Both the position numbers and the translations under genes were made by a program. From a phage: DNA of 64,000 bases. A model generated the notes under the pieces. It made no database searches and was not told the origin of the DNA. It worked only from the letters and a program-made list of their open reading frames with translations. This document shows positions 12,501-26,634 of this stretch, piece after piece (within the stretch, counting starts at the first letter, position 1; each line of letters starts with the position of its first letter). Location of the stretch: the NCBI GenBank assembly GCA_012646185.1, contig GCA_012646185.1_4706.1; one strand, written 5' to 3'.

Positions 12501-13897
12501 GTTAATCCAGAACCGTCGGGTGCTTCGATTTCGTGAATGGCGTCAGCATTACGCATCGCTGCTTTATATTGGACGCCGCTTAACTGACCCGCATCAGCCA
12601 GATCGCTCGCGCGTACCAACACCGCATCCGATAACGACTGAATATATTCACCGTGTGTTTTCGGTAGCGTTGCTGCGTCAAAGACATCAACCTTTTCTTC
12701 TTCGGTATCGTCGGTAACGACTTCGAAGAGATCGTCGGTAATGTCCTGATCTTCATCGGGTTGGAAATCTGGTTGTACTTCTACCCCGGGTACTTCACGG
12801 ACATCTTCGAACGAGCGTTCTACAATGGCGTTCCACGCATCAGCGTCATCGTCTTCATCCGACCCGCCGACCAACTCCGCTTCTAACTCATCGGGATCAA
12901 GAACGGTAGCCAGATCCTCACCGTTAGGAAGCACGACGTCGCGATCATCATACTCCGCATCCGGGCTGTCTGCAAGAATATCTCGCTCTTGACGAAGAAC
13001 CTGTTCCTCTTCTTGTTTCTGTTCTTCTTCATTCGCACTCTGCGACCACAAACGTGTTACCGCCATCATCCAACGACGCTGGAAGGTTTCAAGTGTCGTT
13101 TTATCGAGTTCTTCCCCTTCCTTAACAAGCCCGGTACGCCATTCCTCCAGCAGGCCCAGATTCAGCGTAAAGAAGTACACACCGTCCGTAAATACAACGT
13201 TAAGCTTATCCAGCGTGGCTCTGTCTAACGAAGCCATCGTACTGTTCTCACGATCGGTTCCCAACCAGCGGAAGAAGTCAAAGAACGACAGCTCCTCCGG
13301 CGTAGCGAAATTCATGAGGTTGTTACGGGTCGGTGCCTGTTGCGTGGTACGCATCAACGAAATCTTCGGCAATGTTGACGGTATACGGAACAACAGAAAG
13401 TGTTGACGATCGCTTTGCTGTGCGATTTCGTTGGCTTTCGACCAAATTGTTTTACGTACGTTGAACCATTCATCATACCAACGGGTGAGCGTTGGACGAT
13501 AAATGTACATGTGGTTAAGATGCGCGTAGTTAGCCACGATCTGAGCGTTGATGTTTTTCTCCACCGTACTTAGATCAGTGACCAAACGAAAACGACGATG
13601 CGATGCACGGTAATCCAGTTTCGCACGCGGTAGCTGGAATCGCTGATCCCGTCGAGGTGCGCCTTGCTTGGTTGCAAGGTCATCCGCGAACGATATCCAA
13701 AGCTGGGCACTTTCTTTGCTCAGCATGTATTCGTTTTCTGGAGGACCTATCAATGATGGATCCGTTGCGGTGTAATGATAGACAGCATAACGCGGCAGCT
13801 GCAATAGCTGCACTAAACGTAATCTCGGTGACAATAGCTCTTGGTAGCGTCTGACACCGAACTGTCGGTAGTAATCAAGGTATTTAAGTTTTGCCAT
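9551..13897 (-). CDS. multisubunit RNA polymerase beta-prime-like subunit, C-terminal part
   Basis: 1448-aa ORF with ATG and GGAG RBS; contains a bridge-helix-like NNAGRWLTRQL (compare E. coli ANSGYLTRRL) and a possible trigger-loop-like TMTGIGG; follows the DFDGD exon. Highly diverged. Confidence 0.5.
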   Translation of the reverse strand: MAKLKYLDYYRQFGVRRYQELLSPRLRLVQLLQLPRYAVYHYTATDPSLIGPPENEYMLSKESAQLWISFADDLATKQGAPRRDQRFQLPRAKLDYRASHRRFRLVTDLSTVEKNINAQIVANYAHLNHMYIYRPTLTRWYDEWFNVRKTIWSKANEIAQQSDRQHFLLFRIPSTLPKISLMRTTQQAPTRNNLMNFATPEELSFFDFFRWLGTDRENSTMASLDRATLDKLNVVFTDGVYFFTLNLGLLEEWRTGLVKEGEELDKTTLETFQRRWMMAVTRLWSQSANEEEQKQEEEQVLRQERDILADSPDAEYDDRDVVLPNGEDLATVLDPDELEAELVGGSDEDDDADAWNAIVERSFEDVREVPGVEVQPDFQPDEDQDITDDLFEVVTDDTEEEKVDVFDAATLPKTHGEYIQSLSDAVLVRASDLADAGQLSGVQYKAAMRNADAIHEIEAPDGSGLTLAEYVEVKPKAAKLAPAKVMPEADVIVDKSLCKSTLAVWDKHYVEHVMQKDIAAAVVAVQQAGYPVTGYKVEDVVDVMGDYQVITIKLAPVGGVPTTFPVMLPKVRKDGIYVVNGIKYRMRKQRVDKPIRKVSSSEVALSTAYGKVFVKRSERVVNNAGRWLTRQLTAMYYDKSSPLTTLKRGNVFDPAVKVPYYFAVLARNYTQIQFADWDIRLDTKTLPEFIGEDRFNEQLAEGLLTFARNTLGEFLAIDKRNQLYICQSGQTPTPVGTFPDFFGINAAKMPIEAADLEFMGVRIPVGVVLSYLGGLTPLLEHLKANYRTVPRGSRMGLAPDEFAVSFDDESLIFSKDDRMTTLLLGGFNEYRNYIGYARGAFDNRDIYFNVVDGAGLKVRHLRELELMERLFVDPVSRTLLQNMGEPTDFAMLLLRAVELLLDDWAPNTNDVNYQRFKTYDKFAELVYKDLVGAIRQNENSSQGNRQKISISPVSVWNQILDDSASIVIDETNPMLDIKQGEEATMTGIGGRSKTSLRRARDREYDKSDVGIVSEGTKDSGDVGISAYLAPNANIVSVYGETRPFDEKTDGISSVMSTSALAVPAVDRDDGKRLVFVGIQHNRMIAAEGYDVQPWRTGGETVIAHRVGKLFAAAAQGDGVVKKVTKTALTIQYDDPELGEEVFQLGTIIGKGPGKYYPHDLITDYKVGDRVKDQDVVVFHRLYFKRDWWNPGQVVWRAGVLSLVGILDIPETHEDSSYIFDNLADRLVTPSIKSRTLIVDAHLNIRGLVKIGDHVEPRTILATLEEPIATDLSDESQEAVEALRRMSQYNPRADVHGEVVQIDVLYRAQIEDMSETMAALVGEADKARAKRVKELKLNEATTGRINNSNVRIDGNPLGENQIAIRIFMRYDLGAGMGDKGTFAAQAKSVVSSVGHGVNKTEDGHTLDAIFSGTSIANRIIGSPEVVGTVNLGLLYATERAVDIYFNDAK

Positions 13898-14101: not shown

Positions 14102-16060
14102 CTACGCTGAGACCGCCTGCATGGATACGTACATCACAGGCTGCTTGCACTTTCATGCAAGAGGAGACTATATCAAACCGGCAGCGCAACCTGCTACGGT
14201 AACCTACACTTCGAAGACGCTCGTCCTCTACAGGGTGGTAAATCCCTTAGTCGTTGAACCTGCGTTGTTTCACATTCTTGTTTGTAAGAATGTCGTATTA
14301 CTACGCAACAACCAGGCTGCTGATTGCCCATTGTTTCGCACCTTAGCACCGCTTACGCGGCTTTTCTTTCAGCCTAAGCCTCTTACGGAGGTAGTGCATC
14401 TCAACTGTTGTTTCTGCCTTTCGGCACCTCATGGGTCGTTGAGCTTTAGGGGTTCCCAGCATTTCGTAGGTTTTTCAAGCACTCCCTTTCGGGAATACCG
14501 GACTCATTATTAGCTTATTTATTCAAGTATCTGAAATCCCACTTATCTTTACGTCGTTTATCGCACTTGATGTCAGGATGATTAACACGATGCCTAATAG
14601 TTGTTGCCGATAGCTGGCTGAGATTCTCAGCAGATCGTGCGCCAAGAACAACGAGTTTTGTGTCGTCTGGACGCGTAACTTCTACTGCCCGATAATGCTT
14701 ACGTAACACATCACGCCAATATTCACGACGTTCTGGTTCAGCATACTCAAGCATGTAACCGTTAACATCTACTAAACCGTAGCTTTCGTTTAATCGAGAG
14801 GTAGCGGCTGGTTTACTAATACCGATTGCTTTAGCCGCATCGACCACGGTTTTATACGGGGTCTCATTACCGTCTCTATCTACAACCACAATGAAATCTG
14901 GACGTGAATCGAGTAGCTGCTGTCTGCGTTCGACGGCTTGTTGATGAAGCACCATGTTAACGTGTTCGAACCCGTAACCTTCTGGACCGTGCCACCCTGG
15001 ATTGTTATTCGCTCGATAAAGTACCGTCGCAGATTTCACTCCAGTCTGACGTGACGCCTCGTTTGCACTATGAACAACCGTGGTAGAGCCGTCAGGGTGA
15101 TATATCCGTATCTGGTTCATTATACCGGAACCAATGAAGTTACCATCAGCTGATTTAATATCCGGCCATGGTTGAGGATCATCTTTGAATTTAACCACCC
15201 AGCGGTTATTAAACAGTTTGACTTTTCGAACATGTTTGCCCATTGTCGTATCCGTAACACCTGCGACTACTGATGCCTGTGTGATACTCAGGTACTCAGT
15301 AACGGTATCGTTCCATGTATCCCAAAGCAGAACCGGTTTATTGTCGTCGCGTAAACCGTATTCGATGGCGTGTAGAACGTTACGACTTCTGGTCGCCCAT
15401 TCAAGATTATCGAGAGAGTAATTCCATTTGTCGGCATCGAGATGATTAACGTCCAACTTATCGACATTAGCCGGATATTCCCGCCACGCCAACATCAAGC
15501 AGCGATGCAGAACCTTAGTTCTCGTTACATCCCGACAATCATGACGTAGACTAATGAATACGTAATTATCCTTTTTCGGATACGATCTACATTCCTGACC
15601 GTCTTTGCGGCGAATAACTCGTCCTTTCTCATTTATCAGATAACGGGTGTGTCCAGGAATGACACGATAACCAGGGTACTTAGCGATTTCGTAAGCAGGC
15701 TCGAACCGATAGGATAAATTATCAACATCCCAGTTAGATTCGTCACCATCAACAAACATCGCTTTGACGTACTTCTGTGTTTCAATATCAACCAGGATGT
15801 TTTTGTGTGCGATACAAATCAATGCTGGGATATTGAATTCACGACCGGCTAAGATAACCATGTCGCCATTTCTCGGTATCACGACGTGGGTATCACGATA
15901 CCGTAAATTTCCATAGCCGTCTATTTCAATCCAGCTTAGAAACGGAATGGATATAAACTCTTTTTCAGATACTCGCCATTTAAACATCTTAATACCTATT
16001 TAATACTAAACATCATATTAATAGGTTTAAAAGTTAAAAATGACAGAAAATGGCTAAATT
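14102..16060 (-). mobile_element. group I self-splicing intron carrying an HNH homing endonuclease gene
   Basis: Canonical P, Q, R, S core elements in correct order on the minus strand: P ~14366-14381 (GGCUGAAA), Q ~14312-14326 (AAUCAGCAGCC), R ~14244-14259 (GUUCAACGACUAAGGG), S ~14163-14176 (UUGAUAUAGUC); P4 and P7 pairings are complementary. 5' splice site not resolved. Confidence 0.7.
14515..15987 (-). CDS. HNH homing endonuclease (intron-encoded)
   Basis: 490-aa ORF with HNH-type motif DVNHLDADKWNYSLDNLEWATRSRNVLHA, a NUMOD4-like N-terminal segment and three helix-turn-helix-like repeats in the C-terminal half. Confidence 0.8.
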   Translation of the reverse strand: MFKWRVSEKEFISIPFLSWIEIDGYGNLRYRDTHVVIPRNGDMVILAGREFNIPALICIAHKNILVDIETQKYVKAMFVDGDESNWDVDNLSYRFEPAYEIAKYPGYRVIPGHTRYLINEKGRVIRRKDGQECRSYPKKDNYVFISLRHDCRDVTRTKVLHRCLMLAWREYPANVDKLDVNHLDADKWNYSLDNLEWATRSRNVLHAIEYGLRDDNKPVLLWDTWNDTVTEYLSITQASVVAGVTDTTMGKHVRKVKLFNNRWVVKFKDDPQPWPDIKSADGNFIGSGIMNQIRIYHPDGSTTVVHSANEASRQTGVKSATVLYRANNNPGWHGPEGYGFEHVNMVLHQQAVERRQQLLDSRPDFIVVVDRDGNETPYKTVVDAAKAIGISKPAATSRLNESYGLVDVNGYMLEYAEPERREYWRDVLRKHYRAVEVTRPDDTKLVVLGARSAENLSQLSATTIRHRVNHPDIKCDKRRKDKWDFRYLNK

Positions 16061-17529
16061 GAATCACCGCCTAAACCGGCGAGGTACGGGGCAGGAACAA
16101 TAGTAGTTTCTACGAATGATGCATTAGGTAACCAGTCGGGGTATTCCCATGCGATAAATCGTTCATCCGTTATTGGTTCCCAGTTACTATCCAGTTCGGT
16201 TTTCGGTTTTGCCGCAACGGTTGTACGTGCGTAACAGGTTAACGGGATAACGGATTGCATACCGGATACCGGATAACGTGTTACCATCGCAGCCAGGTTA
16301 TTCCAGTACTTATAACCAGCGATATAAATAAGCTCGGTGTAAGTAATGGGGTGAACATCCGCACCAGGCTTATTCAACATCTCCGGAGGTAATTCACTCA
16401 TACCACGGAATAACCGAAACGAATCATTGTTCACATAGACGAGGCAAAGATATCGTCCATTGACCATGATAGGCTCGTTACGCACGCCAGGATCGCTTAA
16501 GGTGTTCAGTAAACGTTCTATTCCGTCCCAGGTTGTAAAGTCATCGATGGTGTCTGGATCAAGCGTGACACGTTCACGTTCCATCGTTTCGGTATCAATA
16601 AGTTCAACTTCTGTAACGTCACGAACAAATATTTCCTGCAAAATACCGGTACGTAACGCATGTTGCGTTACTGGGAGAGCAGCTTTACTCATCTGGTATA
16701 ACCCTAACTGAACTGCGGTACAGGAAGGCTGGTTAGGCGACCCTAATACCTCCGTTGTGGGGTTAATTGCCGAAATAACGTTACGGGTTGAGTTCCAAAC
16801 GCGACGTGAACCAAACTTCCCTTGGAAGATCCCTTTCTTACCTTGGAACATATCCAACAACAAAGCGTAGATATCGTTAAACGTTCTCTGTAAGCTCCAG
16901 CGTTGGCCGTCGTAAACGGGATCGGAATAATCTTTTAATCCATCAGGGACGGTGTTAGAAATTGCAAGGAAACGACGATACAACTCCGTGATTTCTTGCT
17001 CGCTTTCATACCCACCTTCTTTTACTTCTATTTCACGTAAACCCGCAGGTAAAACCAGTAGATGACGAGTCATCGCTTTGAACATGTTCTCTTCGACGAC
17101 TTTAATTCGTAGCTCTCGTTGAGCTGAACCCGTTGAAACGAACTTAATATCAGCGACGTGTTGTGCAAAGAACCCGTACCCTGTCTGTCCTGTTAACGCA
17201 TCAGACGCAACGAAGTCGCGTTGTTCAGGATCCCAACGCGCGTACGCCTTCCCCGACATGATATCGCCATAGAGGTGTTTTAGTCGAATGAGACGATCGT
17301 AGATGACAGGATGTAGGATTTCAACCTTGCATTCAATCACCGCAAATCGACGGTCTCGATCTTCACTACCCGCACTACCAAAGATGGTGTATGAATAGAA
17401 ACCGTCATCGTGGAAATTACCGGTGCTTGGATCACGAATGCTCATGCTCGTGATCTTGGGGAGAAAACGTAACTGCTGTTTATCGAGGTGTAAAATACTA
17501 ATATTAAACGGCTCTCTGACTTTAGCCAT
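16054..17529 (-). CDS. RNA polymerase beta-prime-like N-terminal subunit, exon 1
   Basis: Start ATG at 17529 with AGAGGAG RBS (ORF-track start 17571 is an upstream extension). N-terminus FNISILHL...DGFYSYTIFGS aligns with beta-prime FDAIKIAL...DGLFCARIFGP; KGIFQGKFGSRRVWNSTRNVISAINP aligns with the [26 protein letters not shown] region. Frame stops at 16054 inside the presumed intron, so the true 3' end of exon 1 is uncertain. Confidence 0.6.
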   Translation of the reverse strand: MAKVREPFNISILHLDKQQLRFLPKITSMSIRDPSTGNFHDDGFYSYTIFGSAGSEDRDRRFAVIECKVEILHPVIYDRLIRLKHLYGDIMSGKAYARWDPEQRDFVASDALTGQTGYGFFAQHVADIKFVSTGSAQRELRIKVVEENMFKAMTRHLLVLPAGLREIEVKEGGYESEQEITELYRRFLAISNTVPDGLKDYSDPVYDGQRWSLQRTFNDIYALLLDMFQGKKGIFQGKFGSRRVWNSTRNVISAINPTTEVLGSPNQPSCTAVQLGLYQMSKAALPVTQHALRTGILQEIFVRDVTEVELIDTETMERERVTLDPDTIDDFTTWDGIERLLNTLSDPGVRNEPIMVNGRYLCLVYVNNDSFRLFRGMSELPPEMLNKPGADVHPITYTELIYIAGYKYWNNLAAMVTRYPVSGMQSVIPLTCYARTTVAAKPKTELDSNWEPITDERFIAWEYPDWLPNASFVETTIVPAPYLAGLGGDSI

Positions 17530-17774
17530 GGAGACACTCCTCTTTACCACCACCGGCTGCGGCGGTATCATCTGAACACACGAGAGACGTAATGGGTGAT
17601 GGCGTCACCCATCGCTTCCTTGCTTGAGGCGAGGAAGTTACTAGGTTACGTACCTGCCTGATTTTATCAGGTGGGCGATGTGTGAAGTTATGCTTCAACA
17701 TTATCAATGCCGAAGGTAAACTTCGTGCATCACGTTCCAACGTAACATGGGAACGTATCGAACTGGAGGTATAC

Positions 17775-20700
17775 ATGGTAGATAAAACCCGTGTTGAGGG
17801 TGATGATAATTGGGACAACTGGGATGAAGACTTCTCCCTGGATCTCGATTTTAACGAACCCAAAGACGATCGTAAACCGATAACACGCTTTGCGATAGGA
17901 GCGGTTAAAGGTGCTGCTGAAGATCTTACTTCCTACGAAAGAATGAGGGAGATCGCCAGAAACGCATTGCCTAAGGGCTACAGCGACGGTATGGATCTTA
18001 TCGATTCCGCCGTCGGATCCACGAAGGAACTATACAATGAAGCCGTTCGTGACGTTCTTCCTAAGGTCCAAAGCTCAAAACGGTTAGCCGCACAACTGAC
18101 CAAGAAATACCGTGCGAGCATGCCCGATTTCTCGAAGAAAATTCTTGAGCAATGGGAGCAAGAAGCCAAGGAAGAAGACGAACGTAAAAAAGCTGAAGAA
18201 ACCCTTCGTCAACGCATGGCGAGCGCAGGGGACGATGAGATCGCCCGCAAGGTTGCCGAGGCATTAGGCGAATCAGCAAACCAAAGCGCGGATCAGTTCG
18301 CTGAACAGCAAGCGAAAGAGAGTATCCGTGACGATATCGCTGACAAACGGTACGCTGTAACCAACAAACAAATGAGTGCGATGCAAGAAGGCGTCGCCAA
18401 GATGGTTGGTTTCAACAATGAATTCGCTGCGCGCTACATGCGTAAAAGCCTGGAACTGAAATATCGTTCCTTAGCGATTCAGCGTGCAAGTTTCGACCAG
18501 CATAAAAAGTTAGCCGAAGTCTATATCGGTTTATTACAAAACATCCAGAAGAATACGGCTTTACCTGATGCGGCTAAAGCGAAGATGTCGGAAGAATTCC
18601 GTCGTAGTGCATACCAACGTTTCTTTGGTAATGCGTTAGATGCGATGGGTTCTTTCGAGAACCGTTTCTTTGCCGATGTTAAGAAGAACCTCGCCACCAA
18701 CGCATTAGGTGCTTTAAAAGGCGTCGTGTCTGGCGCAAACGATGCGTTATACGGTTTAAACGAAGCACGTGACTCGATGTCCATGATGGACGGGATGGGG
18801 TCAGAAGGCGATATTAAGGAAATGCAAGGAAAGATGTTGGGTCAACTTATCGGCTCAACTGTCGTACCATGGATGGCTGATAAAGGCAGGATGGCGTTAC
18901 GCGATTTAGCAAAACGTCACCCCAATGCTAAATTCGCTAGCGCGTTAAAAGCCGTGGATCAAGGTGGTGAGGCTGCCGCTTACACGACGCGTAATCTCGG
19001 TAAACTGCTCCAGGAAGATATTCGTAAAAACGAATTCAATCTTAGCGATCCGTTTTACAAGCAATTGTTACGCGGTGCAGGGCGTTGGGCTTTCAACATG
19101 GATAGCGGACGTAACTTCCGCGTGATGAACGACACCGCTGAAACACTGGCGGAGCAAACGTCTTTCGACGGTTTAACCTACCGCAGCATCAACGAAGTTA
19201 TTCCAGGCTTTCTTGCACGCATTCTGAAAAGCAGTGAAGGTATCCGCACCGGAAACAGCGATCCTGATTACGAGGTCTATGACGGCATCAGCGGGCAATT
19301 CGTGTCTCAGCGCACGCGTGAACAAAGCGTCAATGACACGCTGTTTAACAAACGTACATTTGGTTATTACGCCAGCCGTTTCAACGAGGTTATCTCGGTC
19401 ATCGATCCCGATAAACAATTATCGGAAAAAGCCAGGAAGGCACTGGCTAAACAGTTGGCACGAGATAGCGACGCGAACATCGCATTCGACCCGGCTCGTT
19501 TTACGGATGAAAGCAACTTCGATCGTAGCATTGACCGTGACGCTATTAAGGAACTTTCCACGTACTTTCGTGACCGTTACGGTATTCGTGATGATGTCAA
19601 CGATAAGGGCGAACGTCATCAGGTCATTGGAAACCGCGGGCAATATTACACGGAACGTAACCGAGCCGACCTTCGCTACGGTAATTTGAAATCGTTACAA
19701 CCGGATATCCAGCGTAACCTTAACCTACTGAAACGTACTGGTGACGTCCAATATCTGGAACGTATTGGTATTGTAACGAGAAATAGCGACGGAAGTTACT
19801 CGGTTAATCACGATAGGTATTTCTCTGAAATCGATCGGTACATCGACCGACCGGAGTACGCTGAACGTAGTGATGTTAATACGCGATTAACCGCTCAGGA
19901 AACAAGAGCGCTGGCGTTGGGTTATCGTGACGCAAAACCATCAGTTGATGACGTCCAAAATGCGGGTCTGCCGAACATCGATCGTAAGGCTGTTGGAACA
20001 GTAACCGTTGATGAAAACATCGGCTACGATAAATGGTGGAACGACACAGGTGTTATCACCACATCGCTTGAAGAACAGAATCGAGCATGGCAAGAGCTTT
20101 ATCTCGAAGCGTTATCTGAAGCATCCGAACAACGTGTTGAGATGCTTGCGTTGCTGAAAGCCATTTCTGAGAAAGACTGGTCTAATAACGTTTCGCTGGA
20201 TGGTGAAGACGTGCCTGAAGGCGCAGCACCTATTTCATTTATTGATCGTGCCAAACAAAAACTTGGCGGACGCAACCTCTTTAAAGGTGGCCGTAATCTC
20301 CTCTGGAAAGGAATTAAAAATACCGCACGTTTAGGTGTTAAAGGCGCGCGCTGGGGTGCAGAACGCACGTTGGGTAGTTTGGTAAATTCCGGCCGACGCA
20401 TTATCAACTTCAACCGCTTCGTGTTCGGTGCGTTATCCAAGGTCGATCAGGTTCCGTTTGACATTTACGTTAAAGGGGAATCCCAACCACGCATACTGGC
20501 TGCCAAACTTCGTCAGGGGTTATACTTCGACGAGGCGACAGGAAAAGCCGTCAAACGGATGAAGGATATCAAAGGCCCACTCGTTGATGCAGATGGAAAC
20601 ATCGTAATCAGCAACGAGGATATCGAGAAAGGGTTGGTCACTCGCGCCGGTCGTGCCTTTGAGAATTCAGGACTTAAAGCATGGGCGCGTGAAGGTCTTA

Positions 20701-23700
20701 ATGGAATCACGACGGTATTAAGTCTCCCACGGATGTTAAAACGCGGTGCGGTCGAGATCTACAAGCAGCTTGACAAAACACCCGACGTTTACGTCAAGGG
20801 AGAATCAACGCCTCGTCTGTTGTCCATGGTGTTAGCAGCGGGTGGGTATTTCCGTCGCTCGGATGGACAAGTCATCAAAAATCTTGAAGACATCGATGGT
20901 GATGTTGTTGATGCACAAGGTAACGTCGTACTTACGCTTGCCGACATGCAGAAAGGACTTGTCGATAAATACGGTAAAGCGATTCGTCGCTTAAAAGAAA
21001 AGCTCATCAACTTCGGTGTGAAAGCTTTCACGTTACCGTTAACGCTGCTACGTAAGACAAAGGACATCCTTAAAGCCCTTCCAGGTAAAACCGTTAACGG
21101 TCTACGACGGATGGGATTAAATGTCCAATCACCCGACGCATTACTGGTGGGAACAACGTCGAGCATGGTAGATCGGCTCGATGCGATTTACCAGCTTCTT
21201 GACCAGCGTATGCCGGGTGGTGATAAGGATTATCGCGATTGGAATGGGGATGGCGTTCGAGAAGGATCGTTGGAAGACCTGAAACGTAAGCGTGAAGCCA
21301 AGGAAAACGGTAAGGATGACACCGGCAAAGATTCCAATAAAGGAGAAGAAAAGGAGAAGAAACGAGGATTACTCGGAAGCCTTTTCGATATGCTTGGCGA
21401 TACCGCATTAGGTAAACGACTCATGGCGAGTCCGCTTGGAAAAATTCTAGGCGGTCTTGGGGCGGTGTTAAGCGGCGGAGCATCGTTAACCGGATTGTTG
21501 GGCAAGGGTCTCATTAGTGGAACCGGCGCGCTAGTCAAGGGAGGACTAAGTGCGGCAGGATGGTTAGGACGTGGTGCGTTAATGGCGGGTGGGGCTGCAT
21601 TGAACGCCGTTGGTGGGTTATCGGGATTAGGTGCATTCCTCATCTCACCTGTTGGGCTTGCTATCGCTGGCGGTGCATTGGCTGCTTATGCTGGATGGAA
21701 GATCTATCAGCATTTCGCCGAGAAGCCTGACCCGATGCAGAAGCTCCGTCTTATTGCATACGGTGCAAAAGGGGACGATAAAGACTTCAATAAGAAGCTG
21801 CTTGCGACAGAAACATACCTCACCGACCATGTGGTTATGACCGGGGATACCATCGGATTCGATCCGAAAGCCGACTCGGAAAAGATTCTCGAAATCTGGG
21901 AATTGTCCCTGGAAGATTCCGACCGAATGAACGAATGGAAACGCTGGTATCTGCATCGTTTTATTCCTGTTTTCGCTCGTGCGTACAAACTCTGGAAAGA
22001 GCATATGCCGGACGAGAAGAAATACATGGAAATGGATAAATATCCGAACGGTGAGAACAAAGTGAAATGGTCGGAAGCGTTTATCTGGCCTTCCGATAGT
22101 CCTGACGGTCCGTATTACGTCGAAGCTAACCCGTTGGGTTCTTCTGGTGCGACGCGTTATATTGCTGGTCAAGACGTCAAAACCTTGATGCTGAAACAAC
22201 TCGAAGCCATCAAGAAAGAGTACCAGAATCAGATCAAACAATACTCTCATGATGAGGCTATTGCTGATTGGTCACGGATGTCTGACACACAGCGTAAATC
22301 CGTTGCGCCTAACGCATTACGTGGTCAGAAAGCGTCGTTACGTTTTAACGATAAACGTTACAACAGCGCTGGTGCTAAAGGACGACAGAAACTGGATGCA
22401 ACCGCGGTTATTGAAAGCGTAGACCGCCGTGGTAGAAAATGGGTTGCCGGTGGATACATCGATGAACTCACCAGTCTCCGTGTTCGCGCGTACGGTATCA
22501 AGGTTCCGTTGTTAAGCCAGATAAAAGTGCTGATGGAACTTGAAGACGCTGTAGAACCTGGCGTTGTCGCTGAAGGTAAAGGTGTTAAATACGGTGGCGA
22601 TCTTGTCGCGCTCTACAAGAAATTCGCGACGAAGTTCGGAAGAGACGTTAACAGCAAGCATGATCAGGATATCTGGTTTGCTTGGATGAACAACCGTTTC
22701 CTGCCCGTCTTTTTAACCTATTACCAACAAGTTAGCGAAATGGGCGGTCAAGGACTTCTGTCCGACGTGGTACAGAACCTGAAAGACAGCCAACGCTGGG
22801 AAATCGGTGAAGCACTTGTCGCAACACAATACCGTGATGAGAAAGGTACACTGCAGCCTGTATGGTCCTGGAATAGTTGTGGTTTCTCCGGTACTGAAGC
22901 TAACACCACCAGCAGTTCAACAAAGAGCCAACTCGATCTGTTAAAAGAATATGCGGATAAAGAGAAGGTTCGTGAGAAGAACGCGGAAGCATCGCAAGAG
23001 GATACCGATAAATTATCGAAGATCCAAGAGCTGATGATGAAGCAGGCTGGGTACGAGAAGAAGGACGGTGTCTGGCAGAAGAAATCTCGCATTACCGGCG
23101 GGATGAGTAACTCCGAAGCGAATTACAACCCCAATAGGAATAAGGTCGGTGAAAGCAGCTTTACGGCTTCGGCTACTTCCAATGCGGGATTGGGATCAAC
23201 CGGCGATCTTACTGGATTGCCTAACATGGGCTTACAGAAACCGGCAATGGGACCAGGTCCTGAAGCTGGACGTCGTGCGCTTGTTAAATCCGCTGTAAAA
23301 CGCGGCATTACCGATCCAATGGAAATGGCGATGTTCCTTGCGAACATCGAACATGAATCGGGGAACTACACTCACGTACGTGAGGGGAACTACAAGACGC
23401 CAGAGCGTCTTAAACAGGTCTTCCCTTACAAATTCCGTGATGTGCAGGATGCCGCACAGACGATCAGCATGGGGCCGGAAGCGGTATTCGAACGTGTGTA
23501 TGGTAATCGTAAAGATCTCGGAAACACACAGAAAGGAGACGGGGCGAAGTATTTAGGACGCGGCTTCATTCAGGTTACCGGTAAAGCTAACTACGCTCGT
23601 CTGTCTAAGACCTTGAATAAGGATCTTGTCAGCGATCCGACCTACCTGGAAACGCCGGAAGGTGCGGCGGAAGGTAGTGTTGCATGGTGGCTCAACCGAG

Positions 23701-24440
23701 GTAACGTATTACGCGATCCCGCAAAACGGGGTGACGTACGCCAAGTTCGTTATCTGGTTAACGGTGGGTTTAACGGATTACGTGATGTTGAACAACGTTC
23801 AGCTTATTGGATTCAGGCGGCTAAGAATGGCACCCTGAAGAAAATGATGGACGAGTTATCAGGGTCAACATCAGACGATCAAGCTGAAGGACCAACCACT
23901 GCCGAACAGGTGAAGAACGAAGCAGCACAAGAGGCAAACGGAACACCTGCTGTAAGCAACGATCCGCAAGCCCCAGCATCTTCTACTACCCCTGAAGCTA
24001 AACCGTCTGCGGCTGCCGGGACGGCCCCAGCACCTGGAGAAGCATCACCAACGCCCGGAAGTTTCGAAACAGCAAAAGCCGCGGCAGGACAACCGACATC
24101 AACTCCAGCACCTAGCGATTTGCCGTCAAACCCGGGTGCAAATCGAGGGATATCGGTTCCGAATACACCTGCACAGGTTGCGCAGTCTGCGACACAAACG
24201 TCGGCTGCAAGTGAGAACTTCTACGGTAGCGCAGGTGAAATTCTCCGACAGCAGCTGACCACGCAGCAGAACATCGAGAAGAACACCGGTAGAACGAATG
24301 AACTTATTTCGGAATTAATCCAAGCCGTTAAGGGTTCTTCTATCGGTAAGGGTTCTGCAAGTCCTTCTCAACAACAGGCGATGTCGCTACCTAATCGTCC
24401 GCAAGGAATCTCTCCAACACGGACAAGGTACGCACAGTAG
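17775..24440 (+). CDS. giant virion protein (~2221 aa) with embedded lysozyme-like peptidoglycan hydrolase domain
   Basis: Start ATG at 17775 with GGAGG RBS (track start 17682 is GTG). Glycine-rich hydrophobic segment; GH19-like motifs FLANIEHESG and YLGRGFIQVTGKANY; Pro/Ala/Ser/Thr-rich C-terminus. Confidence 0.7.
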   Translation: MVDKTRVEGDDNWDNWDEDFSLDLDFNEPKDDRKPITRFAIGAVKGAAEDLTSYERMREIARNALPKGYSDGMDLIDSAVGSTKELYNEAVRDVLPKVQSSKRLAAQLTKKYRASMPDFSKKILEQWEQEAKEEDERKKAEETLRQRMASAGDDEIARKVAEALGESANQSADQFAEQQAKESIRDDIADKRYAVTNKQMSAMQEGVAKMVGFNNEFAARYMRKSLELKYRSLAIQRASFDQHKKLAEVYIGLLQNIQKNTALPDAAKAKMSEEFRRSAYQRFFGNALDAMGSFENRFFADVKKNLATNALGALKGVVSGANDALYGLNEARDSMSMMDGMGSEGDIKEMQGKMLGQLIGSTVVPWMADKGRMALRDLAKRHPNAKFASALKAVDQGGEAAAYTTRNLGKLLQEDIRKNEFNLSDPFYKQLLRGAGRWAFNMDSGRNFRVMNDTAETLAEQTSFDGLTYRSINEVIPGFLARILKSSEGIRTGNSDPDYEVYDGISGQFVSQRTREQSVNDTLFNKRTFGYYASRFNEVISVIDPDKQLSEKARKALAKQLARDSDANIAFDPARFTDESNFDRSIDRDAIKELSTYFRDRYGIRDDVNDKGERHQVIGNRGQYYTERNRADLRYGNLKSLQPDIQRNLNLLKRTGDVQYLERIGIVTRNSDGSYSVNHDRYFSEIDRYIDRPEYAERSDVNTRLTAQETRALALGYRDAKPSVDDVQNAGLPNIDRKAVGTVTVDENIGYDKWWNDTGVITTSLEEQNRAWQELYLEALSEASEQRVEMLALLKAISEKDWSNNVSLDGEDVPEGAAPISFIDRAKQKLGGRNLFKGGRNLLWKGIKNTARLGVKGARWGAERTLGSLVNSGRRIINFNRFVFGALSKVDQVPFDIYVKGESQPRILAAKLRQGLYFDEATGKAVKRMKDIKGPLVDADGNIVISNEDIEKGLVTRAGRAFENSGLKAWAREGLNGITTVLSLPRMLKRGAVEIYKQLDKTPDVYVKGESTPRLLSMVLAAGGYFRRSDGQVIKNLEDIDGDVVDAQGNVVLTLADMQKGLVDKYGKAIRRLKEKLINFGVKAFTLPLTLLRKTKDILKALPGKTVNGLRRMGLNVQSPDALLVGTTSSMVDRLDAIYQLLDQRMPGGDKDYRDWNGDGVREGSLEDLKRKREAKENGKDDTGKDSNKGEEKEKKRGLLGSLFDMLGDTALGKRLMASPLGKILGGLGAVLSGGASLTGLLGKGLISGTGALVKGGLSAAGWLGRGALMAGGAALNAVGGLSGLGAFLISPVGLAIAGGALAAYAGWKIYQHFAEKPDPMQKLRLIAYGAKGDDKDFNKKLLATETYLTDHVVMTGDTIGFDPKADSEKILEIWELSLEDSDRMNEWKRWYLHRFIPVFARAYKLWKEHMPDEKKYMEMDKYPNGENKVKWSEAFIWPSDSPDGPYYVEANPLGSSGATRYIAGQDVKTLMLKQLEAIKKEYQNQIKQYSHDEAIADWSRMSDTQRKSVAPNALRGQKASLRFNDKRYNSAGAKGRQKLDATAVIESVDRRGRKWVAGGYIDELTSLRVRAYGIKVPLLSQIKVLMELEDAVEPGVVAEGKGVKYGGDLVALYKKFATKFGRDVNSKHDQDIWFAWMNNRFLPVFLTYYQQVSEMGGQGLLSDVVQNLKDSQRWEIGEALVATQYRDEKGTLQPVWSWNSCGFSGTEANTTSSSTKSQLDLLKEYADKEKVREKNAEASQEDTDKLSKIQELMMKQAGYEKKDGVWQKKSRITGGMSNSEANYNPNRNKVGESSFTASATSNAGLGSTGDLTGLPNMGLQKPAMGPGPEAGRRALVKSAVKRGITDPMEMAMFLANIEHESGNYTHVREGNYKTPERLKQVFPYKFRDVQDAAQTISMGPEAVFERVYGNRKDLGNTQKGDGAKYLGRGFIQVTGKANYARLSKTLNKDLVSDPTYLETPEGAAEGSVAWWLNRGNVLRDPAKRGDVRQVRYLVNGGFNGLRDVEQRSAYWIQAAKNGTLKKMMDELSGSTSDDQAEGPTTAEQVKNEAAQEANGTPAVSNDPQAPASSTTPEAKPSAAAGTAPAPGEASPTPGSFETAKAAAGQPTSTPAPSDLPSNPGANRGISVPNTPAQVAQSATQTSAASENFYGSAGEILRQQLTTQQNIEKNTGRTNELISELIQAVKGSSIGKGSASPSQQQAMSLPNRPQGISPTRTRYAQ

Positions 24441-24489: not shown

Positions 24490-26634
24490 ATGGGTATTCT
24501 TGTTCAAAACGCCCTAATCACCAAACAGGCATTTTTATTACCGGGCGATAGCAGCACGCTGAGTGCCGACATGATTAAAGCGAGACATACACCGTATTCC
24601 TACGATAACGTCGATGATACCACCTTAGGTGGGAACTGGGTGCTTAACCCGCCGCCGCAATATACAAAATTTGCCGACATCAAAGAACGCCGACGTGCGG
24701 TTATGCCGGGATCAACGGGTATGGGTCGAGGCTATAGTGAAAGCATTAACAGCTTTAAAGAAGTCGTTACGTTACGATTCGGTAAACCTCGCTTTACAGG
24801 CGCAAGTATCTTCTTTACTGATTTCTACGATGCGGATGTTGCCGTAACGGTTAAAACCGGTCGCGATCCCGGTATTCTTTATTACGCGGCCAAAGCGTAT
24901 ACCACCGTTCTTTCTTACCTCACACCGCTACCTTACTTGTATATGGTTGGACGTATCGGTCGATATTTCCTGGGTAAGCCAACCAGTCAATATTACTATC
25001 AAGTACCAACCATGCATGTGTATTGGGCGTCTTTCCAGACGTTGGTAAACCAAACAGCGATAAACATGGGTCTTATCGCCGGTGCCGGTAAAGATAAAGG
25101 CTACGTGGAAGAAGGAGGTACCGTACTCCACCAATATTCAATCGGTGGTCAGAACGTTGAAGAATTCATCAACTACGCCTCTAAGACGCTACCGGGGATT
25201 TATAAGAAAGGTGGTGGGATCGATATCTACCAGATTGCAACACGTCGTCAGCGCATACAGAACGCATGGGTACGTCGTATTCAATCCATGATGGAAAACG
25301 ATTACTCGTCTTACGAGGAGTTCTGGAACGATCTTGATAAACGACTTGATAGTGGAGCATTTCCATCGGATGTAACCGGTCGTACGTTAACGCAGTATCT
25401 CGCCGATGTGCAGAAATCTAAAGTTTATAGCGTCGAAAACAAAGGCGATAATAAACAAACAATGGACGACCTTTTATTCGGAAGGGCCACATACACCAAC
25501 AAGGATGCTGATGCCAACTTCAATGTCTCAGCGGCTACCTCCGACGGTGGTACGTCAACACAGAGTCAGGGCACAACAGCCAATGTCGGTAATTCGACGT
25601 CAGGGACAACGCAGGCTTCAACAGCAGCATCGACGGCTGGAGGAGCGAACGTACAGAGCAAAGGAATCGGTCAAACAAATGCGGCCGAGGAAGCTAAGTT
25701 TCTTGATCTGATGGATGCTGAACTGGCCGATGGCGCTCAGTTTATCAGTTTTCGAGTCGACTCTGTCACCAGTGTAACCGAAACGTTTTCAAACAGTGCT
25801 TCAGAAAGTTCAATCGCGCAGACGATGAACAGTCGTGCGCAAGCGAACATCGAACGTCGTTTCACCCTTTCCGGTGGTAATACAGGTTGGGCTATATTGG
25901 ACGAAGCCATCAAAGCCGGTTCCGATCTCGTTAATGGTGCTATTTCCGGGATGGGCCTGGATGGTATTTTTGGTGCCTTCATGGGTTCCGGCTTCGCTGA
26001 CATTCCGAAATTCTATTCCGGATCATCGGTAAGTCTTCCACGCGCAGATCTAACGATGGAATTGCGTTCTTGGAGTGGGGACCGCTGGTCGATCTTTACG
26101 AACCTCATGGTACCTCTTTTAGCGATCCTTGCAGGTGGTTTACCTCAGGCTACCGGTAAATCGTCCTACGGGATGCCATTCATGTGTGAGTGTTATATTC
26201 CCGGTAAAGTTCAGATTAAAATGGGCCTTATCGACAACATCACTGTGACGCGTCATGTTGGAAACGTACCATCGACACGCGAGCGATTACCGTTGGGTAT
26301 CGACGTCAGCTTCAGCGTTTATGACCTGTCGTCCATCGTCGCCATGCCGATCACAACGACGGCCGCATCGATCGCAAAACTGGATCCTCGCGGCTTCTTA
26401 AGTGATCTTCTTGCTGACGATACGCCGCTCAACAACTATCTTGCTGTATTATCGGCATTGACACTTACGGAACAAGTTTACATGATTCCGGATTTAAGTC
26501 GTCGCATGCATAAAACCATGGCTGATATCGATAGTTTCTGGAGCAAAGGTAATTTTGCTAGCTGGTTGTCTGACACCATGCCTGGCAGGATAGCATCAGG
26601 GCTGTTATGGAAACGTACAGAACGACCGTTCTGA
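24490..26634 (+). CDS. hypothetical protein, probably structural
   Basis: 714-aa ORF, ATG with GAGGA RBS, directly downstream of the giant virion protein. Confidence 0.6.
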   Translation: MGILVQNALITKQAFLLPGDSSTLSADMIKARHTPYSYDNVDDTTLGGNWVLNPPPQYTKFADIKERRRAVMPGSTGMGRGYSESINSFKEVVTLRFGKPRFTGASIFFTDFYDADVAVTVKTGRDPGILYYAAKAYTTVLSYLTPLPYLYMVGRIGRYFLGKPTSQYYYQVPTMHVYWASFQTLVNQTAINMGLIAGAGKDKGYVEEGGTVLHQYSIGGQNVEEFINYASKTLPGIYKKGGGIDIYQIATRRQRIQNAWVRRIQSMMENDYSSYEEFWNDLDKRLDSGAFPSDVTGRTLTQYLADVQKSKVYSVENKGDNKQTMDDLLFGRATYTNKDADANFNVSAATSDGGTSTQSQGTTANVGNSTSGTTQASTAASTAGGANVQSKGIGQTNAAEEAKFLDLMDAELADGAQFISFRVDSVTSVTETFSNSASESSIAQTMNSRAQANIERRFTLSGGNTGWAILDEAIKAGSDLVNGAISGMGLDGIFGAFMGSGFADIPKFYSGSSVSLPRADLTMELRSWSGDRWSIFTNLMVPLLAILAGGLPQATGKSSYGMPFMCECYIPGKVQIKMGLIDNITVTRHVGNVPSTRERLPLGIDVSFSVYDLSSIVAMPITTTAASIAKLDPRGFLSDLLADDTPLNNYLAVLSALTLTEQVYMIPDLSRRMHKTMADIDSFWSKGNFASWLSDTMPGRIASGLLWKRTERPF

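What the first reader, a model, noticed from the sequence alone, without database searches (positions are those of the whole stretch)
17775..24440. Giant ~2221-aa protein with internal duplication, glycine-rich hydrophobic segment and embedded lysozyme-like domain
The protein has a charged coiled-coil-like N-terminal third, two tandem ~80-aa repeats (YVKGESQPRIL... and YVKGESTPRLL...), a glycine-rich hydrophobic stretch (GLLGKGLISGTGALVKGGLSAAGWLG...), a GH19-like catalytic segment (ANIEHESG, GRGFIQVTG) and a Pro/Ala/Ser/Thr-rich tail. This resembles the giant cell-wall-degrading virion proteins of jumbo phages and may act as a tape-measure or ejection protein.
Basis: partly seen in the sequence, partly recalled or inferred. 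Interest (0 to 1): 0.5.

Follow-up and report, generated by a model that had tools for sequence, protein, structure and literature searches.

The report
Jumbo-phage tail tape-measure protein with lysozyme
This 2221-residue gene is a near-identical copy of E. coli jumbo phage Goslar gp204, the counterpart of phiKZ gp181: a few-copies-per-virion tail protein that most likely sets tail length and is expelled at infection to cut the cell wall, so it is real but already known.

Summary
The window is a Goslar-like Chimalliviridae phage (96.8% nt identity). The protein is Goslar gp204, which is collinear and syntenic with phiKZ gp181 and SPN3US gp239.

Anatomy:
- a long helical N-terminus;
- a confident alpha/beta domain;
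- two small beta repeats with a 108-aa period (not ~80);
- a 92-aa Gly/Ala/Leu hydrophobic segment;
- a second, previously unnoted tandem duplication (M1/M2, ~190 aa each);
- a disordered Pro/Ala/Ser/Thr linker;
- a conserved C-terminal helix.

Published Goslar virion mass spectrometry finds about 3-8 copies per virion. The protein is not modelled in either the Goslar or the phiKZ cryo-EM atlas. Its gene sits next to the hub spacer gene. The SPN3US homologue is depleted at least 10-fold or absent in tailless particles. phiKZ orf181 is essential and is already called the likely tape measure.

Best reading: a lysin-carrying tape-measure/ejection protein that works like T5 Pb2. This is inferred, not shown. 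Across the family the wall-degrading cassette is swapped (SLT, GH19, M23, CHAP, VanY, VgrG3-like). Novelty is low.

The parts
17775..24440 (+). Complete ORF, 2221 aa plus stop. Orthologue of Goslar gp204 (YP_009820915.1), phiKZ gp181 and SPN3US gp239.
17682..17774 (+). In-frame 31-codon extension from a GTG, used as the start in the Goslar GenBank/RefSeq record. Probably not translated. The Shine-Dalgarno GGAGG for the ATG lies at 17765-17769.
   Evidence: upstream sequences. (homologues P0003-P0005 start at the ATG equivalent).
17775..19259 (+). aa 1-495: charged, predominantly long-helix region (79% helix in the model, low pLDDT). Holds family-invariant motifs such as KSLELKYR (~aa 223-230), KNTALPD (~aa 259-265) and SINEVIPGFLARI (~aa 471-483). 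Candidate ruler part.
   Evidence: Homologues in 259 phage records. PHROG 3201, E 2.5e-295.
19260..19889 (+). aa ~496-705: compact alpha/beta domain predicted with confidence (pLDDT 78-92). No Pfam match and no PDB fold match.
20451..20654 (+). aa 893-960: repeat R1, a small beta-rich unit (DIYVKGESQPRIL...). One of the most conserved blocks of the family.
20775..20984 (+). aa 1001-1070: repeat R2 (DVYVKGESTPRLL...), 108 aa downstream of R1.
21210..21374 (+). aa 1146-1200: highly charged Lys/Glu/Asp linker (up to 12 charged residues per 20).
21423..21698 (+). aa 1217-1308: Gly/Ala/Leu-rich, almost uncharged hydrophobic segment with small-xxx-small motifs. Candidate membrane-inserting module. 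An equivalent segment sits at ~55% of the length in nearly all homologues.
   Evidence: Low pLDDT in the monomer model.
21714..22271 (+). aa 1314-1499: module M1, a confident alpha/beta domain (pLDDT 80-93) of unknown function.
22458..23081 (+). aa 1562-1769: module M2, an ancient duplicate of M1 (pLDDT 85-97). The M1+M2 pair is confined to this protein family.
   Evidence: HHalign 99.8%, E 1.1e-27. 500 clusters, nearly all of the listed ones with two matched stretches in ~2000-2700-aa proteins.
23259..23861 (+). aa 1829-2029: GH19 endolysin-type muramidase domain. Predicted catalytic pair E1861/E1870. Active-site residues H1860, Y1909, Q1933, T1935, V1995, N1996, R2008.
23868..24227 (+). aa 2032-2151: Pro/Ala/Ser/Thr-rich linker, predicted disordered. 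Retained in virions: the Goslar MS peptide AAAGQPTSTPAPSDLPSNPGANR maps to aa 2102-2124.
24231..24335 (+). aa 2153-2187: conserved amphipathic C-terminal helix (pLDDT ~80), followed by a short conserved terminal motif in homologues. Candidate hub-docking end, by analogy with the C-terminus of T5 Pb2.
24490..26634 (+). Downstream gene: homologue of Goslar gp203 and phiKZ gp182. It forms the hexameric ring between the tube-initiator ring and the hub in both cryo-EM structures. Context supporting a tail-core role.
16054..17571 (-). Divergent upstream gene: virion RNA polymerase subunit (Goslar gp205, phiKZ gp180 equivalent). Part of the synteny conserved in phiKZ and SPN3US.

Best explanation
The ORF encodes the Goslar-type orthologue of phiKZ gp181 / SPN3US gp239. 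This is a low-copy internal tail protein that most likely acts as the tape-measure and ejection protein of the contractile tail and carries its own cell-wall hydrolase.

Proposed mechanism:
1. During tail assembly, three or six copies dock by their conserved C-terminal helix in the baseplate hub, next to the ring made by the neighbouring gene product. The long, mostly helical N-terminal ~1200 residues extend up the tube lumen and limit tube polymerisation to 46 rings.
2. On sheath contraction and loss of the spike, the protein is expelled ahead of the DNA, C-terminus first.
3. The GH19 domain (catalytic E1861/E1870) cuts MurNAc-GlcNAc bonds and opens a local hole in the peptidoglycan.
4. The 92-residue Gly/Ala/Leu segment inserts into a host membrane and helps form the conduit through which DNA and virion proteins enter.

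Shown: orthology, synteny, GH19 homology, fold and active-site conservation, virion presence and copy number (for the 98%-identical Goslar protein), tail association (SPN3US), and essentiality (phiKZ).

Inferred: location in the lumen, the ruler role, the order of exit, membrane insertion, and any role for the R1/R2 repeats and M1/M2 modules, whose function is unknown.
For: Identity:
- 96.8% nt identity to Goslar over the whole gene; 98% aa identity over the first 1172 aa.
- Collinear with phiKZ gp181 (E 1e-43 and 4e-36) and SPN3US gp239 (E 2e-18 and 5e-10).

Synteny:
- The arrangement 'vRNAP subunit (-) | giant gene (+) | hub spacer gene (+)' is the same in the window, Goslar, phiKZ and SPN3US.
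- The downstream product is the ring between tube initiator and hub in both cryo-EM structures. This mirrors the T4 gene order 29 (tape measure), 48, 54 (own knowledge).

Virion data:
- Goslar gp204 gave 34 peptides, 24.5% coverage and an estimated 3.4-8 copies per virion, and is labelled 'Tail protein'. A C-terminal peptide maps to aa 2102-2124.
- SPN3US gp239, the 'tail tape measure protein', is absent or depleted at least 10-fold in tailless particles.

Elimination:
- The Goslar authors report assigning all hub, spike and inner-baseplate density to other proteins; phiKZ likewise assigns its central baseplate region to other proteins, with gp164 as the spike. Neither atlas models this protein. 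That pattern is expected for a symmetry-mismatched lumen protein.

Anatomy:
- aa 1-495 are 79% helical.
- A Gly-rich uncharged segment is conserved at ~55% of the length across homologues.
- A C-terminal helix is conserved.
- The module order helical, hydrophobic, muralytic, C-terminal coil matches T5 Pb2.

Lysin:
- PDB GH19 endolysins match at E 2.8e-24.
- 8 of the 9 PaGH19Lys active-site residues are identical and the ninth is a conservative Ile-to-Val change.
- The phiKZ gp181 domain is experimentally muralytic.
Against: - No structure places this protein or any homologue in the tube lumen.
- No match to any tape-measure family in Pfam or NCBIfam. BFVD tape-measure hits are not significant (E 0.01-0.03).
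- The length test is inconclusive. The Goslar tube is 46 x 39.16 A = 1801 A, or about 1201 residues at 1.5 A per residue, against 1216 residues before the hydrophobic segment. But phiKZ has a shorter tube (1622 A, about 1081 residues) and a longer pre-hydrophobic region (~1296 aa).
- Only 64% of aa 1-1195 is helical in the model, and that region contains globular domains.
- About 1000 residues with three folded domains would also have to fit in the lumen (68 A wide in phiKZ).
- The hydrophobic segment is too Gly-rich to score as a classical transmembrane helix (best 21-aa window about +3.3 kcal/mol on a simple Hessa-type sum).
- The peripheral baseplate and tail fibres are still unassigned in both cryo-EM maps, so a location there is not excluded.
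- Pfam GH19 scores just below its gathering threshold (23.3 vs 25.5 bits).
Confidence: 0.66

Rival explanations
1. It is part of the central cell-puncturing device, like T4 gp5. A trimer at the baseplate tip would carry the lysozyme to the peptidoglycan. This is the older model for phiKZ gp181.
For: A review lists phiKZ gp181 as a 'needle-like cell-puncturing device', a putative trimer with glycosidase activity. The copy number of ~3-8 is compatible with a trimer. The gene is adjacent to a hub gene.
Against: The Goslar authors report that all hub, spike and inner-baseplate density was assigned: gp13 spike, gp48 cap, gp203 and gp62. phiKZ likewise uses gp164 spike, gp163.1 tip, gp101 hub, gp182 spacer, gp88 initiator and gp174 pin, with no gp181. 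The models show no OB-fold or beta-helix spike module.
Confidence: 0.07
2. It is a peripheral baseplate or tail-fibre structural protein, as in the RefSeq and PHROG label 'tail fiber protein', carrying an exposed wall- or glycan-degrading domain.
For: PHROG 3201 and many GenBank records say 'tail fiber protein'. Peripheral baseplate and fibre density is unassigned in the Goslar and phiKZ maps.
Against: The label appears to be propagated annotation; I found no evidence behind it. The models show long helices plus small globular domains, with no fibre-type beta structure or receptor-binding domain. A conserved uncharged Gly-rich segment and a peptidoglycan-specific GH19 endolysin-type domain make little sense on an external fibre of a phage that infects a Gram-negative host. 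The gene neighbour is the hub spacer, not the fibre genes.
Confidence: 0.1
3. It is a capsid-packaged ejection protein, like T7 gp16 or the chimallivirus inner-body proteins. It would leave the head with the DNA and build a trans-envelope channel.
For: The combination of lysin, hydrophobic segment and large size resembles T7 gp16 (own knowledge). Chimalliviruses inject many virion proteins. The flanking genes encode virion RNA polymerase subunits, which are head-packaged.
Against: The SPN3US homologue is absent or depleted at least 10-fold in tailless, DNA-filled heads. Goslar MS labels it a tail protein with only ~5 copies. No prohead-protease processing is reported for it in the papers read.
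Confidence: 0.05
4. It is a tail-internal lysin and ejection protein but not the length ruler. Tail length would be set by another factor, and this protein would be cargo in the unusually wide tube lumen.
For: There is no simple proportionality between protein length and tube length in Goslar versus phiKZ. The lumen is 68 A wide in phiKZ. There is no homology to known tape-measure families.
Against: The papers read name no other tape-measure candidate in Goslar, phiKZ or SPN3US. The pre-hydrophobic region keeps a narrow length range (~1000-1430 aa in all but one of the sequences listed) across very divergent homologues. Gene position mirrors T4 gene 29.
Confidence: 0.12

Closest known systems
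Escherichia phage vB_EcoM_Goslar gp204 (YP_009820915.1 / QBO64023.1; 'putative chitinase' / 'tail fiber protein')
   Same: Same gene: 96.8% nt identity over all 6666 nt, 98% aa identity over the first 1172 aa, and identical neighbours. Detected in purified virions at ~3-8 copies.
   Different: A few percent sequence divergence. The database record starts 31 codons upstream at a GTG, which is probably wrong.
Pseudomonas phage phiKZ gp181 (2237 aa; structural peptidoglycan hydrolase, 'likely tape measure')
   Same: Collinear homology through the helical N-terminus, both R repeats, the Gly-rich segment and M1/M2. Nearly the same length. Same synteny with vRNAP genes and the gp182 spacer. A muralytic domain at the same relative position (~aa 1830-2030 here, 1885-1978 in phiKZ). 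Essential gene.
   Different: Only ~24-25% identity. The catalytic cassette is an SLT lytic transglycosylase (PF01464) in phiKZ and a GH19 muramidase here. The hydrophobic segment is shorter and weaker in phiKZ.
Salmonella phage SPN3US gp239 (2372 aa, 259 kDa; 'tail tape measure protein')
   Same: Homologous N-terminus and M1/M2 modules, and the same synteny. Genetic and proteomic evidence shows it is a tail component.
   Different: More divergent: BLAST detects only parts of the protein, with only a marginal match (E 0.031) in the repeat region.
Phage T5 Pb2 (multifunctional tape measure protein of a siphophage)
   Same: Same functional logic and module order. Coiled-coil ruler, then a hydrophobic stretch proposed to form a membrane channel, then a muralytic domain, then a short C-terminal coil that plugs the baseplate hub. 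It is expelled at infection.
   Different: No detectable sequence or fold homology. Pb2 is about 1100 aa (own knowledge) and sits in a non-contractile tail. Its lysin is a zinc peptidase that is cleaved off. It has no R1/R2 or M1/M2 modules.
GH19 endolysins: PaGH19Lys (PDB 9EOI) and SPN1S endolysin (4OK7)
   Different: Those are free ~20-kDa lysis enzymes that act from within at the end of infection. Here the domain is embedded near the C-terminus of a 245-kDa virion protein and would act from outside at entry.

Membership tests
phiKZ gp181-type giant tail protein of Chimalliviridae | Collinear homology over the non-catalytic scaffold: N-terminal helical region, R1/R2 repeats, Gly-rich segment, M1/M2. 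| tested here: met
   BLASTP vs phiKZ gp181: E 1e-43 (aa 35-693) and 4e-36 (aa 887 to beyond 1600). Vs SPN3US gp239: E 2e-18 and 5e-10. Homologues in 259 phage records, by organism name almost entirely jumbo phages of Gram-negative hosts. The M1/M2 pair is found in 500 clusters, nearly all of the listed ones giant proteins.
phiKZ gp181-type giant tail protein of Chimalliviridae | Conserved position between a divergent virion-RNAP subunit gene and the hub spacer gene. | tested here: met
   Window 16054..17571(-) | 17775..24440(+) | 24490..26634(+). Same arrangement in Goslar, phiKZ (gp180|gp181|gp182) and SPN3US (gp240|gp239|gp238).
phiKZ gp181-type giant tail protein of Chimalliviridae | Low-copy virion (tail) component. 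| not testable with these tools
   Taken from the literature for the 98%-identical Goslar protein (34 peptides, ~3.4-8 copies) and for SPN3US gp239 (lost from tailless particles).
phiKZ gp181-type giant tail protein of Chimalliviridae | C-terminal peptidoglycan-degrading domain. | tested here: met
   Present at aa 1829-2029, but of the GH19 type rather than the SLT type of phiKZ. The family carries interchangeable cassettes: SLT, GH19, M23, CHAP, VanY, Phage_lysozyme2, VgrG3-like_C.
Glycoside hydrolase family 19, endolysin subfamily | Significant sequence homology to characterised GH19 enzymes. | tested here: met
   phmmer vs PDB: 9EOI 2.8e-24, 7R6S 5.9e-23, 4OK7 5.2e-19, and a Streptomyces GH19 chitinase (2CJL) 6.8e-4. 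PHROG 181 endolysin, E 5.4e-53.
Glycoside hydrolase family 19, endolysin subfamily | Pfam PF00182 score at or above the gathering threshold. | tested here: not met
   18.2 bits for the whole protein and 23.3 bits for the isolated domain, against a cut-off of 25.5. Only profile positions 102-141 match. The Pfam model is chitinase-centred (own knowledge). The five closest full-length homologues (P0001-P0005) also carry no Pfam hit.
Glycoside hydrolase family 19, endolysin subfamily | Catalytic Glu pair nine residues apart, plus the conserved active-site residues. | tested here: met
   PaGH19Lys H50, E51, E60, Y103, Q127, T129, I187, N188, R197 map to H1860, E1861, E1870, Y1909, Q1933, T1935, V1995, N1996, R2008.
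Glycoside hydrolase family 19, endolysin subfamily | Lysozyme-superfamily alpha-helical GH19 fold. | tested here: met
Glycoside hydrolase family 19, endolysin subfamily | Muramidase activity on peptidoglycan. | not testable with these tools
   Needs a zymogram or turbidity assay of aa ~1829-2029, with E1861Q and E1870Q controls.
Tail tape measure protein (functional class) | Occupies the tail-tube lumen and is expelled at infection. | not testable with these tools
   Neither the Goslar nor the phiKZ cryo-EM paper models or mentions it.
Tail tape measure protein (functional class) | Protein length scales with tail length (~1.5 A per residue of extended helix). | tested here: inconclusive
   Goslar: 1801 A tube, about 1201 residues, against 1216 residues before the hydrophobic segment. 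phiKZ: 1622 A, about 1081 residues, against ~1296. The region length is ~1000-1430 aa in all but one of the sequences listed.
Tail tape measure protein (functional class) | Gene adjacent to baseplate-hub or tube-initiator genes. | tested here: met
   The next gene downstream is the gp203/gp182 ring protein.
Tail tape measure protein (functional class) | Sequence membership in a described tape-measure family (Pfam, NCBIfam/TIGRFAM). | tested here: not met
   No tape-measure model hit in Pfam (whole protein and six sub-regions) or NCBIfam. BFVD tape-measure matches have E 0.01-0.03.
Tail tape measure protein (functional class) | Long alpha-helical stretches plus an internal hydrophobic segment. 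| tested here: met
   79% helix in aa 1-495, with single helices up to 92 residues, at low confidence. Hydrophobic segment at aa 1217-1308.
Tail fibre protein (database label, PHROG 3201) | Fibrous beta-structured trimer with a distal receptor-binding domain. | tested here: not met
   Models are helical with small globular domains. Foldseek vs PDB gave no hit better than E 0.6 for aa 1-1195.

The most novel reading that the evidence does not exclude
The conserved Gly/Ala/Leu hydrophobic segment and the family-specific M1/M2 pair may do more than punch a channel. [quoted passage not shown] That would make this 'tape measure' the virion factor that starts the first protective compartment. Nothing here tests the idea. 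It is allowed only because these modules are conserved across the whole family, have no known fold or function, and no virion protein has yet been linked to vesicle formation in the papers I read.
Probability: 0.08. Interest if true: 0.75.

Novelty: already known. Interest (0 to 1): 0.22.

Why it matters
This is the largest gene of phiKZ and the largest ORF in this window, and it is essential in phiKZ. It is probably the first phage protein to meet the cell wall and inner membrane. It is still missing from both published virion atlases.

A clear domain map could guide three things:
- focused cryo-EM or cryo-ET searches for density in the tube lumen;
- design of tail-length and entry mutants;
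- mining of virion-associated lysins, since the family offers at least seven kinds of wall-degrading cassette on one scaffold.

As a discovery it adds little. The gene, its lysin and its likely tape-measure role are already in the literature.

Tried and rejected
- align_proteins on 68 full-length homologues failed. MAFFT --auto timed out. FFT-NS-2 on 74 sequences was used instead, and 26- and 29-sequence alignments fed AF2.
- Pfam on six sub-regions and NCBIfam gave only noise outside GH19. A Talin_R4 hit on the C-terminal helix (19.4 bits against a 27-bit cut-off) was rejected as helical-composition noise.
- I looked for N-terminal tryptic peptides in the Goslar MS supplement to settle the start codon. 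None were found, and the stored file is truncated.
- Tube length against protein length did not give a consistent ratio between Goslar and phiKZ.
- I searched two EPI-vesicle papers and both virion atlases for any mention of gp181, gp204 or a tape measure. There was none.
- A simple Hessa-type sum does not support classical transmembrane helices in the Gly-rich segment, so 'transmembrane' is kept as an inference only.
- The sigma-70 and terminator scan of the divergent intergenic region gave nothing meaningful. These phages use their own RNA polymerases (own knowledge).

Full report

Yes. The ORF listing shows one uninterrupted frame on the + strand ending at 24440. From ATG 17775 it encodes 2221 aa.

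An in-frame GTG at 17682 would add 31 residues and is the start used in the database record for the closest relative. The ATG has a GGAGG 5 nt upstream, while the GTG has no comparable site. Homologues at 47% identity begin at the ATG equivalent.

**2. What the window is**

Megablast of the gene finds Escherichia phage vB_EcoM_Goslar at 96.8% identity over all 6666 nt. Goslar is a nucleus-forming jumbo phage of the Chimalliviridae. The gene is Goslar_00232 in GenBank and HOV27_gp204 (YP_009820915.1) in RefSeq, annotated 'putative chitinase' and 'tail fiber protein' respectively.

The neighbours are conserved too:
- Upstream and divergent lies a virion RNA polymerase subunit (window 16054..17571, Goslar gp205).
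- Downstream on the same strand lies Goslar gp203 (window 24490..26634).

The same arrangement is found in phiKZ (gp180 | gp181 | gp182) and in SPN3US (gp240 | gp239 | gp238).

**3. Orthology**

BLASTP against phiKZ gp181 (2237 aa) aligns collinearly from aa 35 to beyond aa 1600, with E 1e-43 and 4e-36. The alignment runs through the N-terminal region, both repeats, the Gly-rich segment and the middle modules. SPN3US gp239 (2372 aa) aligns over the N-terminus and the middle modules, with E 2e-18 and 5e-10.

tblastn of the first 1172 aa finds relatives in 259 phage records. By organism name these are almost entirely phages of Pseudomonas, Erwinia, Vibrio, Serratia, Aeromonas, Klebsiella and Ralstonia, and the listed records are 203-309 kb long. 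A search of the 5.8-billion-protein collection gives 118 homologues, mostly of 1500-3800 aa.

**4. Anatomy**

Coordinates are in the 2221-aa numbering. Two AF2 models with family alignments cover the protein.

(a) aa 1-495 are charged and 79% helical, with single helices up to 92 residues. Confidence is low. The region holds family-invariant motifs, including SINEVIPGFLARI near aa 471-483.

(b) aa ~496-705 form a confident alpha/beta domain (pLDDT 78-92). It has no Pfam match and no PDB fold match.

(c) aa 706-892 are low-confidence.

(d) aa 893-960 and 1001-1070 are two small beta-rich repeats, R1 and R2:
- They share 38% identity over 118 aa (E 3e-23).
- Profile-profile comparison gives 99.8% probability, E 3.5e-29.
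- The period is 108 aa, not ~80.
- Their cores are among the most conserved blocks of the family.

(e) aa 1146-1200 form a highly charged linker.

(f) aa 1217-1308 form a hydrophobic segment of 28% Gly, 20% Ala and 20% Leu, with four charged residues and many small-xxx-small motifs. A comparable low-charge Gly-rich window sits at about 55% of the length in nearly all homologues.

(g) aa 1314-1499 (M1) and 1562-1769 (M2) are two confident domains (pLDDT 80-97) and ancient duplicates of each other:
- BLAST between them gives E 7e-4.
- Profile-profile comparison gives 99.8% probability, E 1.1e-27 over 165 columns.
- A phmmer scan of 1.84 billion representatives with M2 finds 500 clusters. Nearly all of the 150 listed are 2000-2700-aa proteins with two matched stretches at about residues 1450-2100.

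(h) aa 1829-2029 form the GH19 domain (section 5).

(i) aa 2032-2151 form a Pro/Ala/Ser/Thr-rich disordered linker.

(j) aa 2153-2187 form an amphipathic helix (pLDDT ~80). It is conserved across the family, followed by a short conserved terminal motif in most homologues.

**5. The lysin**

Pfam GH19 scores just below its gathering threshold: 18.2 bits for the whole protein and 23.3 for the isolated domain, against 25.5. Other evidence is strong:
- phmmer against the PDB gives strong matches to solved GH19-type endolysins: 9EOI at 2.8e-24, 7R6S at 5.9e-23 and 4OK7 (SPN1S) at 5.2e-19.
- 9EOI is PaGH19Lys, a biochemically proven muramidase that does not cut chitin. Its active site is H50, E51, E60, Y103, Q127, T129, I187, N188, R197.
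- These map to H1860, E1861, E1870, Y1909, Q1933, T1935, V1995, N1996, R2008 here. Eight are identical and one is a conservative Ile-to-Val change.

'Chitinase' is a misnomer. The best prediction is a peptidoglycan muramidase.

**6. The lysin is a swappable cassette**

phiKZ gp181 carries an SLT lytic transglycosylase at the equivalent position (PF01464, aa 1885-1978). Other family members carry Peptidase_M23, CHAP, Phage_lysozyme2, VanY, T6SS VgrG3-like_C or GH19, sometimes with DUF5675 or Peptidase_S74. The scaffold is conserved and the wall-degrading domain is exchanged.

**7. Where it sits and what it does**

Published data for close relatives carry most of the weight here:
- Goslar virion LC-MS/MS detects YP_009820915.1 with 34 peptides and 24.5% coverage. 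The estimate is 3.4-8 copies per virion, and the protein is labelled 'Tail protein'. One detected peptide maps to aa 2102-2124, so the C-terminal linker is retained in the virion.
- The Goslar cryo-EM paper states that all density of the hub, spike and inner baseplate was assigned, to gp13, gp48, gp203, gp62 and the wedge proteins. It never mentions gp204.
- The phiKZ atlas assigns its central baseplate region to gp164, gp163.1, gp101, gp182, gp88 and gp174. It never mentions gp181 or a tape measure.
- This contradicts the older idea that gp181 is the cell-puncturing needle.
- In SPN3US, gp239 is called the tail tape measure protein and is absent or depleted at least 10-fold in tailless particles.

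The downstream gene product is the ring between the tube initiator and the hub. This echoes the T4 gene order 29 (tape measure), 48, 54 (own knowledge).

**8. Mechanistic analogy**

T5 Pb2 is the best-described multifunctional tape measure. It has a coiled-coil ruler, a 46-residue hydrophobic stretch proposed to form a membrane channel, a muralytic domain, and a C-terminal trimeric coil that plugs the hub. The protein is expelled when the tube opens.

The present protein has the same order of functional modules, with extra family-specific domains. I found no homology to Pb2 or to any described tape-measure family. So it works like a lysin-carrying tape measure but cannot be filed in a known tape-measure sequence family.

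**9. Caveats**

- The ruler test is inconclusive. The Goslar tube is 46 rings x 39.16 A = 1801 A, about 1201 residues at 1.5 A per residue. That is close to the 1216 residues before the hydrophobic segment.
- phiKZ does not fit the same ratio. Its tube is shorter (43 x 37.73 A = 1622 A) but its pre-hydrophobic region is longer (~1296 aa).
- Part of that region is globular.
- The Gly-rich segment does not score as a classical transmembrane helix.
- Peripheral baseplate and fibre density is still unassigned in both maps, so an external location is not strictly excluded.
- AF2 confidence is low for roughly half of the N-terminal model and about 40% of the C-terminal one.

**10. Verdict**

The object is already known: it is Goslar gp204, the orthologue of phiKZ gp181 and SPN3US gp239.

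The modest additions from this analysis are:
- the corrected start codon;
- the full domain map, including the M1/M2 duplication and the conserved C-terminal helix;
- residue-level support for an active GH19 muramidase;
- documentation of lysin-cassette exchange across the family.

Interest is low to moderate. The one speculative reading worth a test is a role for the conserved hydrophobic and M1/M2 modules in forming the early infection vesicle.

Noticed in passing
window 14144..14530 (-): A group I intron (Rfam RF00028, 56.3 bits, E 1.3e-11) lies in the 617-nt gap between minus-strand ORFs 14515..15987 (phiKZ gp179-like) and 9551..13897 (virion RNAP beta-type subunit). Its upstream (5') end overlaps the last 16 nt of ORF 14515..15987. 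The two ORFs may therefore be exons of one split gene. Goslar's GenBank record also lists this intron.
   Followed up: partly
window 17682..17774 (+): The GenBank and RefSeq Goslar records, and cluster representative P0001, start this gene at a GTG 31 codons upstream. RBS position and homologue N-termini favour ATG 17775, so the deposited protein is probably 31 aa too long.
   Followed up: yes
window ~17590..17640 (divergent intergenic region 17572..17774): Two short hairpin-forming inverted repeats (ATGGGTGA-TGGCG-TCACCCAT, then CTTCCTTGC-TTGA-GGCGAGGAAG) lie between the divergently transcribed vRNAP-subunit gene and the giant gene. I read them by eye from the sequence. The consensus scan found no terminator-like site here and only three weak 9-of-12 promoter-like matches, all overlapping the flanking coding sequences. 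They could be regulatory elements for the phage's own polymerases.
   Followed up: no
homologues P0006, P0056, P0058, P0064: Several full-length homologues are labelled as proteins of Caballeronia or Paraburkholderia genomes, on contigs of 143-493 kb. One is even named 'cell pole-organizing protein PopZ'. These are probably jumbo-phage genomes hidden in bacterial assemblies, with misleading names.
   Followed up: no
window 24490..26634 (+), roughly aa 340-395 of the product: The downstream hub-ring protein (gp203 homologue) has a low-complexity Ser/Thr/Gly/Ala-rich insert (…NVSAATSDGGTSTQSQGTTANVGNSTSGTTQASTAASTAGGANVQSKG…) in its middle. It has no Pfam match.
   Followed up: no
L004 (phiKZ) and literature: The phiKZ tail-tube lumen is reported as ~68 A. 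That is wider than the ~40 A I recall as usual for tail tubes (own knowledge). A wide lumen might be what lets folded domains (M1, M2, the lysin) of this giant protein, and the injected virion proteins, pass through or reside there.
   Followed up: no
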